From the IMG/VR virus record IMGVR_UViG_2541047861_000012, positions 1 to 19,841 of that record: a DNA stretch of 19,841 nt; one strand, 5' to 3'. Below are positions 1-9,999 of the stretch, in pieces. The number at the start of each line of letters is the position of its first letter. The first letter of the stretch is position 1. Position numbers and translations under genes: made by a program. Source of the stretch: a virus. Taxonomy: Duplodnaviria > Heunggongvirae > Uroviricota > Caudoviricetes. The notes below the pieces were generated by a model that saw nothing but the letters and a program-made list of their open reading frames with translations, ran no database searches and was not told the DNA's origin.

Positions 1-516
1 ATGAAATTTAAAAAATGTCTTCTGCCTGTGGCAATGTTAGCGTCATTCACTCTGGCAGGATGCCAGTCAAATGCTGATGATCATGCCGCCGATGTTTATC
101 AAACCGATCAACTGAATACCAAACAAGAAACTAAAACCGTTAATATTATTTCCATTCTTCCCGCAAAAGTTGCCGTAGACAACGCCCAAAATAAACGGAA
201 CGCACAAGCCTTCGGCGCGCTTATTGGCGCTGTCGCTGGCGGTGTTATCGGCCACAACGTCGGGTCTGGCAGCAATTCCGGAACGACGGCAGGTGCAGTT
301 GGCGGCGGAGCTGTAGGCGCGGCAGCGGGTTCTATGGTGAATGATAAAACCTTAGTGGAAGGTGTTTCTTTAACATATAAGGAAGGCACCAAAGTGTATA
401 CCTCCACCCAGGTGGGTAAAGAGTGCCAGTTTACGACAGGTTTAGCCGTTGTTATTACCACGACGTATAACGAAACGCGTATTCAGCCAAATACCAAATG
501 TCCTGAAAAGAGCTAA
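1..516 (+). CDS. outer-membrane lipoprotein with glycine-zipper domain (SlyB/YcfJ-like)
   Basis: ATG at window position 1; lipoprotein signal peptide MKFKKCLLPVAMLASFTLAGC with lipobox LAGC; Gly/Ala-rich stretch GALIGAVAGGVIGHNVGSG...GAVGGGAVGAAAG typical of glycine-zipper lipoproteins; stop 514-516. Family call from motif recall only. Confidence 0.7.
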   Translation: MKFKKCLLPVAMLASFTLAGCQSNADDHAADVYQTDQLNTKQETKTVNIISILPAKVAVDNAQNKRNAQAFGALIGAVAGGVIGHNVGSGSNSGTTAGAVGGGAVGAAAGSMVNDKTLVEGVSLTYKEGTKVYTSTQVGKECQFTTGLAVVITTTYNETRIQPNTKCPEKS

Positions 517-531
517 TAATCAGGAGGAGTC

Positions 532-1071
532 ATGAAGAAAGTTTTTCTTTGCGCCATCTTAGCCTCCTTAAGCTATCCGGCTATCGCCTCATCATTGCAG
601 GATCAACTCTCGGCTGTCGCAGAAGCGGAACAGCAAGGTAAAAATGAAGAGCAAAGGCAGCATGACGAATGGGTCGCGGAGCGCAACAGGGAAATCCAGC
701 AAGAGAAGCAACGTCGCGCAAACGCCCAGGCCGCGGCTAATAAAAGAGCGGCAACGGCAGCAGCGAATAAGAAAGCTCGTCAGGATAAACTGGACGCCGA
801 AGCCACTGCGGACAAAAAACGCGATCAAAGTTATGAAGATGAGCTACGTAGCTTAGAGATTCAGAAACAAAAACTGGCGCTGGCGAAAGAAGAAGCCCGC
901 GTCAAGCGCGAAAACGAATTTATCGATCAGGAACTGAAGCACAAAGCTGCGCAAACCGATGTGGTGCAATCTGAAGCTGACGCAAACAGAAATATGACTG
1001 AAGGCGGTCGCGATCTGATGAAAAGCGTGGGTAAAGCAGAAGAGAATAAATCAGATAGCTGGTTTAACTAA
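532..1071 (+). CDS. secreted/periplasmic coiled-coil protein of unknown function
   Basis: AGGAGG Shine-Dalgarno at 522-527 just upstream of ATG 532; signal peptide MKKVFLCAILASLSYPAIASS; remainder Lys/Glu/Ala/Gln-rich and coiled-coil-like; followed by terminator 1110-1144. Confidence 0.65.
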   Translation: MKKVFLCAILASLSYPAIASSLQDQLSAVAEAEQQGKNEEQRQHDEWVAERNREIQQEKQRRANAQAAANKRAATAAANKKARQDKLDAEATADKKRDQSYEDELRSLEIQKQKLALAKEEARVKRENEFIDQELKHKAAQTDVVQSEADANRNMTEGGRDLMKSVGKAEENKSDSWFN

Positions 1072-1109
1072 ACGATGTTAGTAACTTCAAACCTATAATT
1101 CTTTAGGAT

Positions 1110-1144
1110 AAAAAAACCCTCTGTAGTAACAGAGGGTTTTGTTC
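1110..1144. terminator. bidirectional rho-independent terminator
   Basis: 8-bp stem CCCTCTGT (1117-1124) / ACAGAGGG (1129-1136), 4-nt loop, flanked by A7 (1110-1116) and TTTTGTT (1137-1143). This gives a U-tract on both strands, between convergent gene 532-1071 (+) and the lysis operon ending at 1290 (-). Confidence 0.65.
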
Positions 1145-2398: not shown

Positions 2399-2696
2399 GT
2401 TTAGACCTCGTTATTTTGAAAATTTGAACGACGTTACCGCGAGTTTTAAGAACCGCAGCAAGCATGACAGCGTTAATAATGACCTCAGATAAATCCACAG
2501 CCATTGGCGTACGTAACCAGATTGCATAGGCGACTCGAACAGGAATACTGGCCGCAGCAACAATCAGGAAATAAGCAAGCCATCCTCCCCACCTTCGGTG
2601 TTGAGAGCCGTTACGCCGGAATGTGACAACGCGAATTGCTATGCCAGTGCAAATAACTGCATTGGTGATAAGCAAAAAAAACTCATGCGTTACCAT
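2388..2696 (-). CDS. holin-like small membrane protein (second holin or antiholin)
   Basis: 102 aa; hydrophobic segments [54 protein letters not shown]; basic C-terminal tail; overlaps 2683-3087 by 14 nt and the endolysin by 11 nt. Confidence 0.55.
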
Positions 2697-3087
2697 CGTC
2701 TTTTCTCCCCGGAATTAACTCGCGTGGATTATCGGAAAGGTGATAGAGCCATATACCAATACGCACAGCGACAATTGCTGACACGAATGCGCCTGCAGAG
2801 AAAACAATCCCTTTTTCAAAAGAGTCCTGCGTGATGGTAGGGATCAGGCTAGCTATGCCGATAAGAATTGATGCTGCTGGTTTGTAAAAGAGAAGGCCGC
2901 AAAGAAAGCTGAGCATCGACAGGAGCACCCGGCGACGGATGGGGTACTCTACTGCAGAGGTAACAAAAATTACCGCCCCAGCCAAAGCCCCTAAAGCAAC
3001 CTCCGGAGGGACACCTGCAATAACCGCAGCAAGAGAACCAAAACTAAGCAACTGATTTAATTGCTCACTTGTTACTTGAGCAGACAT
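2683..3087 (-). CDS. holin (class I-like, 3-4 TM segments)
   Basis: 134 aa; AGGAG about 5 nt upstream of ATG 3087 on the minus strand; several TM helices and charged C-terminus [13 protein letters not shown]; first gene of the lysis cassette. Confidence 0.65.
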   Translation of the reverse strand: MSAQVTSEQLNQLLSFGSLAAVIAGVPPEVALGALAGAVIFVTSAVEYPIRRRVLLSMLSFLCGLLFYKPAASILIGIASLIPTITQDSFEKGIVFSAGAFVSAIVAVRIGIWLYHLSDNPRELIPGRKDDGNA

Positions 3088-3368
3088 ACTTTCTCCTGTT
3101 TACTATCTATAAGCCAGTCAATTATTGATGACTAAACCCGCATAGTAAACCATATATGAATCATTATTGTTCCATATCATATATCTCAATAAAAGTACTA
3201 ATTATTTTACAGAACGAGCCAGCAGAGTGGGGGCAGTTGTACAGGAACCATAGACTTAATTTTGTATTTAATAATGCTATGGTGTAATAAACCTGAACAT
3301 GTATTTAAAATACGTACTGATTCATGATAGAATTCAAAGATAACTTTTCACCAACTCCGTTTTTGATA

Positions 3369-3395
3369 CCCGCAAAATATTGCGGGCTTTTTTTT
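3369..3395 (+). terminator. rho-independent terminator oriented for plus-strand transcription
   Basis: 7-bp stem CCCGCAA (3369-3375) / TTGCGGG (3380-3386), loop AATA, then C plus T8 (3388-3395). The minus-strand RNA would have no U-tract after the hairpin (reads UAUCAAAAACGG). Confidence 0.5.
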
Positions 3396-6300
3396 AACGT
3401 TCTTCCAGAGACTGAATCCGCTCTTTTATCTTATCCATTTCTCTGCGCTGCCATGCTGCCTCGATATAGAATAAGAGATCAGGTCTGACCCCCCATCTAG
3501 ATCCTGCTGGCGTTATTTCAACGCGCTCAATGATGTCTTCCATTACCATCACTGGATTATCATCCTCATCAACAATGATGCTCCCGTCATTATCAGTCAG
3601 CTGTATTTCCCTTTGGCCAGTAATGACGTCATCATATACTGCGGGATAATCGTCATAGCAAAGAAAGGCATAGCGGCATGTTGTGCTTTCTTCTTCCATG
3701 AGTCCGTGAGAAATAAGAACATCACGAAGTTGCTGCGCGATTACACCATGATGTATCCTCGCCCCTTCTTCTCCCTTTATAGCGACAGCGTTCAGCCATT
3801 TATAAGCGATATACCTGACGTCACCCCAGGCATCCAGCAATGCTTCGTCAGGAGAGACCGGCTCTGTCTTTAATGTTCCGTCACTGGTAACCACAGGATT
3901 GGAGCCAAGATAAACTGTCGAGAACCTGTTTCCCGGACCACCAAGAGCATTTACATTATCAAGATAAGGTTTAACATCTCCGTTCTCAAAAAGATGTTCG
4001 AGTGCGTTATATACCGCGCGACGTGGAGTACTGCTTCCGGAACCATGCAACGTTATCATTGCACCATCTGCTGAAGACGTTGTTTCACCGCCGCTAACGA
4101 TTAATCTCTGAGCGGTAACATCATCAGACGGTACTTTCTTCGCAATAATGGCGTAATTGCCCTCCAGTTTGACTTCCGCGCGAACTTGTCCTGATGTACC
4201 TGCATGGACAGTCAGTGACTGGACGGCAACATCATCTGTGAAATCAACGGGTACAGGAACCGTCCTCACGCCGGACGTCGACATAAAAGTAGGAAGCGTT
4301 CTGTTAGGAGTGGCTCCGTAGACAAAATCCCTTGAAACAAATTCTTCCTGTTTAATTTTCACCCTGAAACAATACAAATCAGCCGGGTGACCATCGTGAA
4401 CATAAGGATATTTTCTGTTGTTATCCCCTATGCTCCATGGGTTTAGAAAGTCTTCCCCACCGAAAATGTAGTACAGCCAGTTGTCTTTGATACAAACTGA
4501 ACCAACACCAACCGCAGAGTTAACTATTCCGCCCTGATAAATCTGATCAGTAACATTAACCCACTCTACATTATCCAGACTCCACTCATTGACGTTAACT
4601 CTGGTCATAAATGTTCTTGGATAATTTCCTGCATAACGGTTATCAGGTTCTCCTCCTTCCCACTCACCAAATGCGCGCTCACTGCCAAAAATAATCAGCT
4701 CATCGCCAACTTTGGCAAAAGGAAGGTTTGAGTGATGAACATTATTTGGGAAGCGAAGAGAATTCCATGATGCACCTAAATCAGAGCTTCTGTGCAATGA
4801 ACTACCGGGTTGAGTACTTAATGTCCCCCTGGTCGTCAGATACAGAATGCCATCATAATATTTTACACATGGCTCAGATGCATTCGCCTCATATTCTGCA
4901 GGTATGCGTCTGCGAACAAAGCTACCAGGAGAACCGAAAGCATCAGAGAAATAGAGTATCCCAAGCTCGCGTGGACCAATATCACCATTATGGTAGCCAA
5001 CAGCAAAACTGTTATCGCTAATCGTCGCAAAACTGTGAATCTCAGTAACAGGAGTGCTTCCGTCAACAAAAGAAGAAATAGTTCCAAGACTGGTTTTTCT
5101 CCATGGTGACGAGTGAAATGATGTACCAAAACTCCAGTATCTACCCTCGTTATTCTGATCCACATCCTGAGTATTTTGCGTCGTAACTGTAAAAGTATTT
5201 TTATCAATAACAGTAGTCACCGTCATATTCCCGGTAACACCTGTAACACCAGAGTTTGAGAAGTTGACAAAATCACCAGCAAATAATCCGTGATCAGTAA
5301 TGCGAATATAAGCGACTTGCTGATTTGCTGCTTTCGTTATACCACCATAAACGCGAAGGCTGCGACTCATTGGACGATCCCACAACTCTGCAACCTGCAG
5401 TTTATTTCCGCGCACGGTCCGCGTCTCAATTACAGCAAAAAGGCGATTTCTGACAACCCCCATACTCATGCAGTGATAGTTAACTGTGGGATAGTTTTCA
5501 TGTAAATCTGTAAGCCATTCCGGCGTTGTCCAGGTCTTCCCGTCATCTCCTGAGCGAACCCATGCAACATGGAGGTTATTTACACCATGGCGGTCTCCAG
5601 CCATAAAAGGCGCATAGATGACATTGTCATATACAAACGTTTTATCCTGCGTCCAGGCGTTGTACCACGGTGTATCTGTAATTTTAAATAACTCTCCCTG
5701 GATAAAATCTTCAGAAGCATAAAAAAGAGGCTGACCCGGTATTCTCTCAAATAAAAAACGAGCATTTTTAAATCGGCTGACATCCGGAAGAGTTGATACT
5801 TTAAAAGTAAGCCCTAATCCGTCAATTTTATAACCTGGAGATGAGGCTTCAAGGCACGCGCTTATTGCAGTGGAATCGTCATTTATACCATCACCAACAG
5901 CTCCAAAATCTTTGGGGCTAATAGCATCACGCATTTTATCCTGGAACGTTCGGTATACTGCCCCAGAACCATACTGAATAAACCAACCAAAACCACCAAC
6001 AACCCCGGCGATTGCAGCATCGACATAATTACGCATTGAGCGATTATTTACAGCGTCCTGTTCAAGTGATGGATCTGCAAGGTTAGAAATTCTGTTTTGC
6101 TTTGCATCGTAATATTTTGCAAGCAAAGATGGTTTCATCAATGCACGTCTGAACCATCCAAAACATTGCTGGATCAGCATCGTCAGGTAGTCAAAGGCAT
6201 CTTCATGCACTTCGGGGAAAAACTTTCCCTGATTGCGAAGGTCTGTCTCCTGCACTACATCAAGCACACGATCTATCGTAATTCTCCATCCAGTAGCAAG

Positions 6301-6513
6301 CGGCGACGGAAGAACCACAGAACCGCCACTATAAGTGCCCGCCCCAGTTACCGTATAACCGGTATCCAGAACCAATTCTGTTACGTTCCCGTTCAGGTCA
6401 GACACCTGAACAACCAGGTCGGATTTTCTGAAAATTCGAAAAGTATACGGAAACGATGTCGTAACGCCGTTACCGGTGTATTCGTTGTGGTCAACTTCGG
6501 TTGAGACCGTCAT
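3394..6513 (-). CDS. tailspike/tail fibre with depolymerase domain (T7 gp17-like N-terminal anchor, Asp-box sialidase-like region, C-terminal S74 intramolecular-chaperone domain)
   Basis: GGAG 7 nt upstream of ATG 6513; residues about 10-115 resemble the T7 tail-fibre N-terminal particle-binding domain; pectate-lyase-like motif DFGAVGDGINDDSTAISA (201-219); Asp boxes SGDDGKTW (321-328) and SSDLGASW (576-583); predicted autocleavage site VVTS/DG (877/878) followed by a chaperone-like C-terminus. Substrate not determinable by eye. Confidence 0.85.
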   Translation of the reverse strand: MTVSTEVDHNEYTGNGVTTSFPYTFRIFRKSDLVVQVSDLNGNVTELVLDTGYTVTGAGTYSGGSVVLPSPLATGWRITIDRVLDVVQETDLRNQGKFFPEVHEDAFDYLTMLIQQCFGWFRRALMKPSLLAKYYDAKQNRISNLADPSLEQDAVNNRSMRNYVDAAIAGVVGGFGWFIQYGSGAVYRTFQDKMRDAISPKDFGAVGDGINDDSTAISACLEASSPGYKIDGLGLTFKVSTLPDVSRFKNARFLFERIPGQPLFYASEDFIQGELFKITDTPWYNAWTQDKTFVYDNVIYAPFMAGDRHGVNNLHVAWVRSGDDGKTWTTPEWLTDLHENYPTVNYHCMSMGVVRNRLFAVIETRTVRGNKLQVAELWDRPMSRSLRVYGGITKAANQQVAYIRITDHGLFAGDFVNFSNSGVTGVTGNMTVTTVIDKNTFTVTTQNTQDVDQNNEGRYWSFGTSFHSSPWRKTSLGTISSFVDGSTPVTEIHSFATISDNSFAVGYHNGDIGPRELGILYFSDAFGSPGSFVRRRIPAEYEANASEPCVKYYDGILYLTTRGTLSTQPGSSLHRSSDLGASWNSLRFPNNVHHSNLPFAKVGDELIIFGSERAFGEWEGGEPDNRYAGNYPRTFMTRVNVNEWSLDNVEWVNVTDQIYQGGIVNSAVGVGSVCIKDNWLYYIFGGEDFLNPWSIGDNNRKYPYVHDGHPADLYCFRVKIKQEEFVSRDFVYGATPNRTLPTFMSTSGVRTVPVPVDFTDDVAVQSLTVHAGTSGQVRAEVKLEGNYAIIAKKVPSDDVTAQRLIVSGGETTSSADGAMITLHGSGSSTPRRAVYNALEHLFENGDVKPYLDNVNALGGPGNRFSTVYLGSNPVVTSDGTLKTEPVSPDEALLDAWGDVRYIAYKWLNAVAIKGEEGARIHHGVIAQQLRDVLISHGLMEEESTTCRYAFLCYDDYPAVYDDVITGQREIQLTDNDGSIIVDEDDNPVMVMEDIIERVEITPAGSRWGVRPDLLFYIEAAWQRREMDKIKERIQSLEER

Positions 6514-7014: not shown

Positions 7015-7105
7015 TTTACATCGCACTCCTCTTGTGCCATAGTAATCGGGCACTGGCAAAATCCAGTGCCGGGATTGGCGTCCCGGATTACTAAAAGGCG
7101 CATTC

Positions 7106-7125
7106 ACCGCGCAAGCGGTTTTTTT
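7106..7125 (+). terminator. weak rho-independent terminator in the leader of the Bro-N antirepressor gene
   Basis: Short stem ACCGC (7106-7110) / GCGGT (7115-7119), loop GCAA, then a T-run to 7125; preceded by hairpins at 7049-7070 and 7069-7086 that share bases. Confidence 0.3.
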
Positions 7126-7282
7126 ATGCGTATAGCACGGCCACATTCGTATTATGGTGGGCTGTGTGGGGGCACCGAAAGGTGCGCCGGGTCCTTTTAG
7201 CCGGTTACGCCAACCCTGCACAGTTCACCACCAACCGATTGGCGTCGGTAGTGGTGATTAACCAGACTAAAAGGTAACCACT

Positions 7283-9220: not shown

Positions 9221-9925
9221 ATAACCATAACATTTTGTCTGTGTTTTAATTGCCTCACGAAGCGCATCTAACATCTTGACTGCCACTTCATCATTCTCTG
9301 ATGCAGATCCAGCAGGGAGATACTCCCCTTCAAGCGGAACCCGAGCAACAAGAGACAACGCTTCGGCAAATTGATCTTCACCAATTTCTTTGTACGAACA
9401 GCCAAAATGAGATTTCAGTGACGACCACATGGTGATCATCGCCTTAGCCTGTTTTTCTTTTGGCAGAGACTGACCGCGACTCATGACGAGTTGTTTAATG
9501 GCTTCCTGCTGTTCAGTTGTTATTTTACCCGGCAACGCCTTTTTAGCTTTGCGTGGGTTAACCACATGGCCTTTAGTCCAGTACTCGTAGAGCACATCGT
9601 CACACTCTTCCTGATACTGGATTACCTTGTCGCGGATTTCAGGGCGGACTTTGTTAGGGCTGATGCTGTTCAACCAAGCTGCCAATTTTCGTAAAGCCAT
9701 ACAAATCATGGCTTGCACCCCACCGGCAGAAGGTATGGTGATTTCCACCATACCCTTCGAGAAGCGTTGAGAAATCTTCTTATGTTGAGATTTCCAGTCT
9801 AGCCCCATTCCCTCAACGATAGGTTTCATTGGGGTATACGGTTCGCCGTTGTGATTGACAACATAAAGCTCTGCGCCGTGGAATGGCACGTTGATAGTAG
9901 ATACTGCTGTTGCTATACTCGTCAT
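8987..9925 (-). CDS. ant: antirepressor (Ant-like; AntA/P22-Ant-type N-terminal domain plus shared C-terminal module)
   Basis: 312 aa; follows the arc-like gene on the same strand after a 72-bp spacer; N-terminal region INVPFHGAELYVVNHNGEPYTPMKPIVEGMGLDWKSQHKKI resembles phage antirepressor N-terminal domains; C-terminal 77 aa identical to 7283-7978. The symbol is given by position and domain analogy to P22 ant. Confidence 0.8.
   Translation of the reverse strand: MTSIATAVSTINVPFHGAELYVVNHNGEPYTPMKPIVEGMGLDWKSQHKKISQRFSKGMVEITIPSAGGVQAMICMALRKLAAWLNSISPNKVRPEIRDKVIQYQEECDDVLYEYWTKGHVVNPRKAKKALPGKITTEQQEAIKQLVMSRGQSLPKEKQAKAMITMWSSLKSHFGCSYKEIGEDQFAEALSLVARVPLEGEYLPAGSASENDEVAVKMLDALREAIKTQTKCYGYPLKPGYRSLIHSPSGVLGLTENSLLMNLLNQLQEDGHDVSGAAAELTTMFCYIVGVSKCLRDIQTHAEYINDKAGFF
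9891..9919 (+). promoter_or_regulatory. candidate sigma70 promoter for an antisense (sar-like) RNA
   Basis: -35 TTGATA (9891-9896), 17-bp spacer, -10 TATACT (9914-9919); predicted start near 9926, i.e. opposite the ant start codon (9923-9925). Confidence 0.4.
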
Positions 9926-9999
9926 GTCGTTAATTCCTATACGTAGTTTTACGATACTGAAGCCCTGACGGTCTGGCCACCGTGGGGCTTCGCTGTTTT
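9926..9999 (+). ncRNA. predicted sar-like antisense RNA covering the arc-ant intercistronic region and ant ribosome-binding site
   Basis: Transcript predicted from promoter 9891-9919; ends at stem GAAGCCC (9959-9965) / GGGCTTC (9985-9991) with inner stem ACGG/CCGT, followed by GCUGUUUUA (9992-10000). About 70 nt, same size and topology as P22 sar RNA. Confidence 0.35.

What the first reader, a model, noticed from the sequence alone, without database searches (positions are those of the whole stretch)
3088..3395. AT-rich 300-bp spacer ending in an orphan plus-strand terminator between tailspike and lysis genes
The spacer 3088-3368 is about 30% G+C and has no credible ORF. It ends in a strong hairpin plus T8 that is oriented to terminate plus-strand RNA, although both flanking operons are on the minus strand. 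This could mark a small plus-strand RNA antisense to the 5' end of the lysis operon, or a module-junction scar from recombination.
Basis: inference. Interest (0 to 1): 0.38.

Follow-up and report, generated by a model that had tools for sequence, protein, structure and literature searches.

The report
Gene-less conversion slot with antisense terminator
The AT-rich gap between the tailspike and lysis genes of this E. coli K1 prophage is that phage family's swappable slot for host-surface-modifying genes, here without a gene but with a textbook transcription terminator, so it is largely ordinary, though a tiny regulatory RNA is not excluded.

Summary
Positions 3088-3393 are 31-32% G+C and have no credible ORF. 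They end in a canonical plus-strand intrinsic terminator: a 7-bp stem at 3369-3386, then C and T8 at 3388-3395. By strict criteria it is the only such site in the window.

The window is a Uetakevirus (epsilon15/phiV10-like) prophage of K1 E. coli, about 99.5% identical to phage vB_EcoP_ZX5.

In about 45 related lineages the tailspike-to-lysis gap ranges from 99 to 2458 bp and co-varies with tailspike type. In at least 11 lineages it holds one plus-strand gene convergent with the tailspike, such as oac in phiV10.

The spacer has two parts:
- **3088-3168:** the family-wide conserved upstream region and leader of the lysis operon.
- **3169-3393:** K1-lineage-specific DNA found only next to this endosialidase tailspike.

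I read the terminator as the 3' end of a cargo-less or vestigial moron cassette. It would stop antisense transcription at the tailspike stop codon.

An extended -10 promoter at 3304-3333 could produce a roughly 55-nt RNA. That promoter arises by chance in 6-16% of shuffles, and there is no Rfam match, no constrained seed and no target within the window.

Interest is low to moderate.

The parts
2683..3087 (-). First gene of the lysis cassette: a gp23-like membrane protein or putative holin of 134 aa.
   Evidence: ORF. Annotated as a membrane protein or putative holin in ZX5, phiV10 and RefSeq.
3088..3168 (-). Family-wide conserved upstream region and leader of the lysis operon. It includes the Shine-Dalgarno AGGAG at 3093-3097, a promoter-like site TTTACT-17-AATAAT at 3149-3121, and the motif AAACCATATATG at 3147-3158.
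   Evidence: Found at the same distance from the start codon in every lineage. Promoter scan.
3096..3152 (-). Conserved hairpin of the lysis-gene leader. The outer arms are GTTTACTAT and ATAGTAAAC.
   Evidence: Inverted repeat I3. Across 25 lineages, 94.8% of cells are paired against 32-56% in the slid controls, and the covariation score is 0.355 against 0.13 or less.
3169..3393 (.). K1-lineage-specific AT-rich DNA. It occupies the variable conversion-gene slot and has no ORF.
   Evidence: No similarity to any other slot DNA or slot protein. Found only next to this tailspike in phages, 72 E. coli genomes, IMG/VR and metagenomes.
3304..3333 (+). Candidate sigma-70 promoter: TTTAAA, an 18-nt spacer, then TGaTAGAAT (extended -10).
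   Evidence: Invariant in all K1 loci. Expected by chance in 16% of shuffles anywhere in the spacer and in 6% at this distance from the hairpin.
3340..3395 (+). Hypothetical RNA of about 55 nt: 29 unpaired nt, then UUUUUGAUA, the terminator hairpin and U8.
   Evidence: Inferred from the promoter and terminator. Fold. No Rfam family. No trans target in the window beyond shuffles. Position 3352 is polymorphic, C or A.
3369..3395 (+). Intrinsic terminator: a 7-bp stem with 5 G-C pairs, a 4-nt loop, then C and T8.
   Evidence: The stem is invariant, the loop is inverted (AATA to TATT) in 5 of about 19 loci, and the T-run is 7-9.
3394..6513 (-). Endosialidase tailspike of 1039 aa. Its stop codon overlaps the T-run, and similarity to CUS-3 siaK1 starts at 3423.

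Best explanation
The spacer is this lineage's version of the variable slot between tailspike and lysis genes, which epsilon15/phiV10-like (Uetakevirus) phages use for lysogenic-conversion genes. Its left 80 nt (3088-3168) are the conserved promoter and leader region of the lysis operon. The remaining roughly 225 bp (3169-3393) travel with the endosialidase tailspike as the 3' flank of the exchangeable tailspike cassette. In many relatives this slot holds one plus-strand gene convergent with the tailspike. Here there is no protein cargo, only an AT-rich stretch with promoter-like sites and a strong plus-strand intrinsic terminator abutting the tailspike stop codon. Inferred mechanism: RNA polymerase that starts on the plus strand within the AT-rich DNA, most plausibly at 3304-3333, is released at 3388-3395. 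Antisense transcription therefore does not enter the tailspike and late genes. The unit amounts to a minimal or vestigial moron cassette, a promoter and terminator without a gene. On the minus strand the hairpin has no U-tract, so tailspike transcripts probably read through towards the lysis genes. Shown: the anatomy, the polarity, the variability of the slot, the cargo orientation in relatives, and the lineage restriction. Inferred: that termination actually occurs, and that the cassette lacks a dedicated function.
For: The terminator is canonical and unique in the window. The window is about 99.5% identical to the Uetakevirus vB_EcoP_ZX5. The slot measures 99-2458 bp and co-varies with tailspike type across 80 IMG/VR loci. 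At least 11 lineages carry a single gene on the window-plus strand, convergent with the tailspike, such as phiV10 oac and other 321-646-aa acyltransferase-like proteins. A G+C-rich hairpin directly after the tailspike stop is found in nearly all lineages. Backbone homology ends at about 3168. The K1-specific piece is found only with this tailspike: 3 phages, 72 of 5426 E. coli genomes, 20 IMG/VR loci and 6 metagenome contigs. There is no coding potential and no RNA family match. SNP density in the spacer (about 2.6%) is similar to that of the flanking genes (about 2.2-2.3%), so there is no sign of special constraint.
Against: No remnant of a conversion gene is detectable. The conserved conversion-gene promoter module of relatives (AAATTACCC-N4-GGTGATAT) is absent. 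'Vestigial' is therefore not demonstrated, and the DNA may never have carried a gene. In relatives the T-tract polarity of the hairpin after the tailspike does not track the presence of a convergent gene cleanly. A strong U8 terminator kept intact in all copies could point to a selected product. Divergence within the lineage (2% or less) is too low to test constraint.
Confidence: 0.55

Rival explanations
1. The spacer encodes a genuine small regulatory RNA of about 55 nt (3340-3395, + strand). It would be transcribed from the extended -10 promoter at 3304-3333 and end at the U8 terminator. This would be a non-coding moron expressed in lysogens. It could act in trans through Hfq on host or phage mRNAs, or in cis against the 3' end of tailspike and read-through transcripts.
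For: The promoter-like site sits at the right distance and is invariant. The terminator has a long U-tail preceded by the U/A-rich sequence UUUUUGAUA, the architecture typical of Hfq-binding sRNAs (plus established knowledge). The slot is one where relatives express lysogeny-phase genes on this same strand. Prophage antisense or small RNAs near tailspike genes have precedent, for example STnc6030 of BTP1 (PMC7067206) and svsR (PMC12803456).
Against: The promoter match arises by chance in 6-16% of shuffles of this AT-rich DNA. There is no Rfam hit, and the best E-values are 0.75 or worse and driven by the terminator. The would-be seed is polymorphic at 3352, C in 6 and A in 10 loci. No complementary target in the window exceeds shuffled seeds, with a best non-self energy of -21.2 against a shuffled mean of -21.2. 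There are no expression data.
Confidence: 0.2
2. The hairpin works mainly on the minus strand, as a 3' stem-loop of the tailspike message that acts as a stabiliser, pause site or weak terminator. On this view the plus-strand T8 is incidental, being simply the A-run that follows the TAA stop codon.
For: Nearly every lineage has a G+C-rich hairpin within 5-40 nt after the tailspike stop, and several of these are clear sense-strand terminators. On the minus strand the stem is 8 bp including a G-U pair.
Against: The minus-strand tail UAUCAAAAAC lacks a U-tract, so efficient intrinsic termination in E. coli is unlikely. An 8-nt homopolymer placed exactly 1 nt from the stem is the defining terminator feature, and it occurs only on the plus strand.
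Confidence: 0.15
3. The roughly 225 bp are what remains of a plus-strand conversion gene that was deleted, for example an acyltransferase like oac or neuO. Only its terminator would be left.
For: Relatives carry such genes here, ending next to the tailspike stop. The other temperate K1 phage, CUS-3, carries neuO next to its endosialidase gene. One lineage (L076) shows a truncated 69-aa acyltransferase-like N-terminal fragment in its slot.
Against: tblastn of all slot proteins and blastn of all slot DNAs against the spacer found nothing beyond the conserved motif at 3141-3168. The conserved promoter module is absent. There is no similarity to the CUS-3 neuO region.
Confidence: 0.1

Closest known systems
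Moron cassettes (promoter, gene, terminator) of temperate phages. The closest case is the oac O-acetyltransferase locus of phage phiV10 and the serotype-conversion genes 21 and 22 of epsilon15, which sit between the tailspike and lysis genes.
   Same: The genomic slot is the same. The strand is the same as oac, convergent with the tailspike. The G+C content is lower than in the neighbours. A plus-strand terminator sits at the tailspike end and a promoter-like site lies upstream.
   Different: There is no ORF. The conserved Uetakevirus conversion-gene promoter module is missing. There is no sequence similarity to any known cargo.
Canonical Rho-independent (intrinsic) terminators of E. coli.
   Same: A G+C-rich 7-bp stem, a 4-nt loop and a U8 tract 1 nt after the stem, with an energy of -11.2 kcal/mol.
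   Different: There is no annotated upstream gene on its strand. It is not bidirectional, because the minus strand has no U-tract.
Prophage-encoded antisense or small RNAs in late regions, for example STnc6030 of Salmonella prophage BTP1 (PMC7067206), and Hfq-dependent prophage sRNAs such as DicF, IsrK and svsR (PMC5069750, PMC12803456).
   Same: The location is in a late region next to the tailspike and on the antisense strand. The terminator with a long U-tail resembles the Hfq-binding module.
   Different: No expression evidence, no homology and no Rfam family. The RNA would be far shorter than STnc6030, which is 786 nt.
Boundary sequences that flank exchangeable tailspike modules, such as bsq1 annotated in CUS-3.
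   Same: Conserved backbone sequence (3088-3168) delimits a cassette that is swapped together with the receptor-binding part of the tailspike.
   Different: Here the conserved boundary is also a functional promoter and leader for the lysis genes. The terminator lies inside the variable part, not at the boundary.

Membership tests
Rho-independent terminator | G+C-rich stem-loop with a 3-8-nt loop, immediately followed by a U-tract | tested here: met
   7 bp with 5 G-C pairs, loop of 4 nt, then C and T8 on the + strand. It is the only strict site in the window, with 0 in 60 simulations.
Rho-independent terminator | Lies at the end of a transcription unit on the same strand | tested here: inconclusive
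   There is no plus-strand gene. There is only a promoter-like site at 3304-3333, which has a 6-16% chance expectation.
Rho-independent terminator | Releases RNA polymerase in vivo or in vitro | not testable with these tools
   This needs Term-seq or a read-through reporter.
Bidirectional terminator | A-tract upstream and T-tract downstream, so that both strands see a U-tract | tested here: not met
   The minus-strand tail is UAUCAAAAAC. The scan finds the site on the + strand only.
Moron cassette | Inserted between two backbone genes that are adjacent or nearly adjacent in relatives | tested here: met
   The slot is as short as 99-153 bp in relatives and 306 bp here.
Moron cassette | Base composition differs from the neighbouring genes | tested here: met
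   31-33% G+C against 45-48%.
Moron cassette | Own promoter and own terminator | tested here: inconclusive
   The terminator is present. The promoter is only a consensus match.
Moron cassette | Carries a gene (protein cargo) | tested here: not met
   There is no credible ORF, and the 43-aa ORF has no Shine-Dalgarno sequence, no homologues and a lost start codon in one variant.
Uetakevirus conversion-gene unit (phiV10 oac type) | Conserved palindrome plus extended -10 module AAATTACCC-N4-GGTGATATnAT, about 104-125 nt from the lysis-gene start | tested here: not met
   A profile built from 11 lineages finds nothing in the K1 spacer.
Hfq-dependent sRNA | Intrinsic terminator with at least 7 U, preceded by a U/A-rich single-stranded stretch | tested here: met
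   UUUUUGAUA, then the hairpin, then U8. The criterion comes from established knowledge of Hfq-binding modules.
Hfq-dependent sRNA | Discrete transcript, Hfq binding, and a conserved seed with targets | not testable with these tools
   No expression data. The seed is polymorphic at 3352 and no target within the window stands out. There is no Rfam family.

The most novel reading that the evidence does not exclude
In K1-specific Uetakevirus prophages, which are common in ST95-type ExPEC, APEC and NMEC strains, the lysogenic-conversion slot may be occupied by a tiny sRNA gene rather than a surface-modifying enzyme. The gene would consist of a promoter at 3304-3333, a 29-nt seed region and a U8 terminator. 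Its RNA could modulate host functions such as capsule, surface or phage susceptibility, or could silence leaky read-through from the tailspike into the lysis genes in lysogens.
Probability: 0.17. Interest if true: 0.55.

Novelty: new member of a known kind. Interest (0 to 1): 0.22.

Why it matters
The main value is for annotation and for understanding mosaicism. The analysis shows that the region from the tailspike receptor-binding part through the downstream slot is exchanged as one cassette, bounded by the conserved lysis-operon leader. It also shows that the K1 lineage carries a gene-less version ending in a strong antisense terminator. If the roughly 55-nt RNA proves real, it would be a non-coding occupant of a classical serotype-conversion locus in a prophage carried by about 1.3% of complete E. 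coli genomes (72 of 5426). These include strains such as APEC O1, IHE3034 and IAI39.

Tried and rejected
- **Rfam:** searches at gathering and at E <= 10 thresholds gave only weak, terminator-driven matches.
- **tRNA or tmRNA:** none found.
- **Coding potential:** the small ORFs were rejected because they lack a Shine-Dalgarno sequence and homologues, and one variant loses the start codon.
- **Homology of the spacer:** searches of INPHARED phages, PLSDB plasmids, 5426 E. coli genomes, IMG/VR and metagenomes returned only the same prophage.
- **Exact terminator 25-mer in GTDB genomes:** the only hits were unrelated convergent terminators in a Prevotella MAG and in Herbaspirillum.
- **Remnant of a conversion gene or of the conserved conversion-gene promoter:** none found.
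- **Similarity to the CUS-3 neuO or siaK1 flank:** none.
- **Global RNA structure of the spacer:** not significant on either strand, with z = -1.0 and -1.5.
- **Trans targets of the putative seed within the window:** none above shuffled controls.
- **Conservation analysis within the K1 lineage:** uninformative, because identity is 98-100% and SNP density matches the flanking genes.
- **Literature:** no paper mentions this sequence or an RNA at this locus. The svsR sRNA belongs to an unrelated lambdoid prophage.

Full report
**What is there**

- Positions 3088-3393 are 31-32% G+C, between genes of 45-48%.
- The only ORFs are 21-54 aa and lack ribosome-binding sites.
- The stretch ends in CCCGCAA-AATA-TTGCGGG (3369-3386), followed by C and T8 (3388-3395) on the plus strand.
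- The hairpin folds at -11.2 kcal/mol, z = -2.6.
- Under strict criteria (at least 7 Watson-Crick pairs, at least 5 G-C pairs, at least 7 T in 8) it is the only such site on either strand of the 19.8-kb window. None arose in 60 Markov simulations.
- On the minus strand the same hairpin is preceded by A8 and followed by UAUCAAAAAC. It is therefore unidirectional and plus-polar.
- The tailspike stop codon is the complement of 3394-3396 and overlaps the T-run.

**Context**

The window is a prophage about 99.5% identical to the temperate phage vB_EcoP_ZX5, genus Uetakevirus, the epsilon15/phiV10 group (PMC9782041).

Positions 1-1071 are the host genes yfgH and yfgI. On the minus strand the order is:
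- Rz-like spanin, 1290-1772
- endolysin, 1769-2398
- holin, 2388-2696
- a gp23-like membrane protein or putative holin, 2683-3087
- the spacer
- a 1039-aa endosialidase tailspike, 3394-6513

The spacer occurs at 98-100% identity in 3 phage records and in 72 of 5426 complete E. coli genomes. These include APEC O1, IHE3034 and IAI39, and the spacer always sits beside this tailspike. It also occurs in about 20 IMG/VR contigs and 6 metagenome contigs in the same context.

**The slot in relatives**

I fetched 80 IMG/VR loci through the gp23-like protein and measured the distance from the tailspike stop to the gp23-like start. It ranges from 99 to 2458 bp and co-varies with tailspike type.

In at least 11 lineages with long slots, the cargo is a single gene on the window-plus strand, convergent with the tailspike. 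These genes start 146-200 nt from the lysis gene and end next to the tailspike stop. They include acyltransferase-like proteins of 321-646 aa and other membrane proteins. phiV10 oac, a documented O-antigen acetylase, is the annotated example.

Other lineages carry small sense-strand genes or nothing. This is therefore the family's lysogenic-conversion (moron) slot. It is exchanged together with the receptor-binding part of the tailspike.

**The spacer has two parts**

*Part 1, 3088-3168.* This part is homologous in all lineages.
- The motif AAACCATATATG(G) lies at the same distance from the start codon everywhere.
- It carries the Shine-Dalgarno sequence at 3093-3097 and a minus-strand promoter-like site, TTTACT-17-AATAAT, at 3149-3121.
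- It carries a hairpin at 3096-3152 on the minus strand that is conserved with covariation across 25 lineages. Paired cells are 94.8% against 32-56% in slid controls, and the covariation score is 0.355 against 0.13 or less.
- Many of its G-U pairs are valid only on the lysis-sense strand.
- This part is the promoter and leader region of the lysis operon, not junk spacer.

*Part 2, 3169-3393.* This part has no detectable similarity to any other slot, any slot protein, any phage, any plasmid or any other E. coli locus.

On the other side, the 98.5% similarity to the CUS-3 endosialidase begins at 3423, inside the last 10 codons. CUS-3 has a different C-terminus and a different 3' flank, which carries neuO. 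The junction idea is therefore right, but the junctions lie at about 3168 and about 3423, not at the hairpin.

**Is it a decayed conversion-gene unit?**

Relatives share a plus-strand module, AAATTACCC-N4-GGTGATATnAT, a palindrome overlapping an extended -10. It lies about 104-125 nt from the lysis start and precedes their conversion genes.

A profile built from this module finds nothing in the K1 spacer. No protein remnant is detectable either. Gene loss is therefore possible but not demonstrated.

**Is there a plus-strand transcript?**

- The best plus-strand promoter match is TTTAAA-18-TGaTAGAAT at 3304-3333.
- With a start near 3340 it would give a roughly 55-nt RNA. That RNA would have 29 unpaired nt, UUUUUGAUA, the hairpin and U8, a layout like that of Hfq-type sRNAs.
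- An extended -10 of this quality appears in 16% of dinucleotide shuffles of the AT-rich piece, and in 6% at a suitable distance from the hairpin.
- Rfam gives nothing.
- The putative seed is polymorphic at 3352, C or A.
- No target in the window beats shuffled seeds.
- Divergence within the lineage is too low to detect constraint. SNP density is about 2.6% in the spacer and 2.2-2.3% in the flanks.
- The hairpin stem is invariant, but its loop is inverted (AATA to TATT) in 5 of about 19 loci, and the T-run varies from 7 to 9. This is typical hairpin mutational behaviour and says nothing about function.

**Most likely mechanism**

I put confidence in this reading at about 0.55. The terminator is the plus-strand end of a cargo-less (minimal or vestigial) moron cassette that belongs to the 3' flank of the tailspike cassette. 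It releases polymerases that start in the AT-rich DNA before they run antisense into the tailspike and late genes. Minus-strand tailspike transcripts meet no U-tract and probably read through to the lysis genes.

The rivals are:
- a genuine roughly 55-nt sRNA, about 0.2, with precedents such as STnc6030 in BTP1 (PMC7067206)
- a minus-strand role as a 3' stem-loop of the tailspike message, about 0.15
- the remnant of a deleted conversion gene, about 0.1

These readings are not mutually exclusive. Only strand-specific transcript mapping and reporters can separate them.

**Verdict**

The feature is real and the terminator is canonical. The context explains most of the apparent oddity: plus-strand units are the norm in this slot. 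No new kind of element is indicated. Interest is 0.22. The residual novelty lies in the untested possibility of a small RNA occupying a serotype-conversion slot.

Noticed in passing
window 3096-3152 (minus strand); alignment A1 of 25 Uetakevirus lineages: There is a conserved hairpin in the leader of the first lysis gene. 94.8% of cells are paired and it shows compensatory changes (for example G-C in 14 sequences and A-U in 8). Many of its G-U pairs are valid only on the lysis-sense strand. In most lineages its 5' arm contains the -10-like TATGAT. Transcripts from that promoter would then lack the arm and only read-through transcripts would fold, which could guard against premature lysis-gene translation.
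   Followed up: partly
loci L002, L040, L052, L076, L077, L081, L088, L090, L098, L099, L100, about 90-130 nt from the gp23-like start (window-plus orientation): A conserved palindrome plus extended -10 module, AAATTACCC-N4-GGTGATATnAT, precedes the plus-strand conversion genes in many Uetakevirus lineages. It looks like a shared, possibly regulated, moron promoter. It is absent from the K1 lineage.
   Followed up: partly
window 3376-3379 and 3388-3395, compared with L114 and the L115 group: The 4-nt loop of the terminator hairpin is inverted (AATA to TATT, two simultaneous changes) in 5 of about 19 K1 prophage copies, while the stem is unchanged. The T-run varies from 7 to 9. This is the signature of template switching at a hairpin.
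   Followed up: yes
window 7050-7125 (+), 7150-7235 (+): Rfam gathering-level hits to isrK (77.9 bits) and C4 antisense RNA (77.7 bits) lie just upstream of the ash-family and anti-repressor genes. This resembles a P1/P7 immI-type antisense control of the antirepressor.
   Followed up: no
window 9927-9994 (+): An Rfam hit to sar RNA (the P22 immI antisense RNA) scores 44.8 bits, just above the gathering score of 43. A promoter-like site, TTGATA-17-TATACT, lies at 9891-9919.
   Followed up: no
window 1-1140: Positions 1-1071 are the host genes yfgH and yfgI. A 12-bp hairpin with A4 upstream and T-rich sequence downstream (1113-1140) sits at the prophage end. It probably terminates the lysis operon and insulates it from host transcription.
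   Followed up: partly
upstream of the gp23-like start in most non-K1 lineages (e.g. L002 6489-6510); equivalent to window 3088-3110: Most lineages have a short upstream ORF (ATG CAC AGT AAA CGG TGG ..., MHSKRW) preceded by AAGGGGG, inside the 3' arm of the leader hairpin. The K1 lineage has lost its ATG (ATAGATAGTAAAC) and instead has AGGAG directly before the gene.
   Followed up: no
L161 5065-6278 (E. coli 23CRST038): An IS3-family element is inserted into the endosialidase tailspike gene of one otherwise identical prophage, leaving the spacer intact.
   Followed up: yes
L019 2242-2266 (Prevotella MAG), L020 2394-2418 (Herbaspirillum lusitanum): An identical 25-nt terminator core (GCCCGCAAAATATTGCGGGCTTTTTT) occurs in unrelated genomes with unrelated flanks. 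This looks like convergence of simple terminators, not homology.
   Followed up: yes
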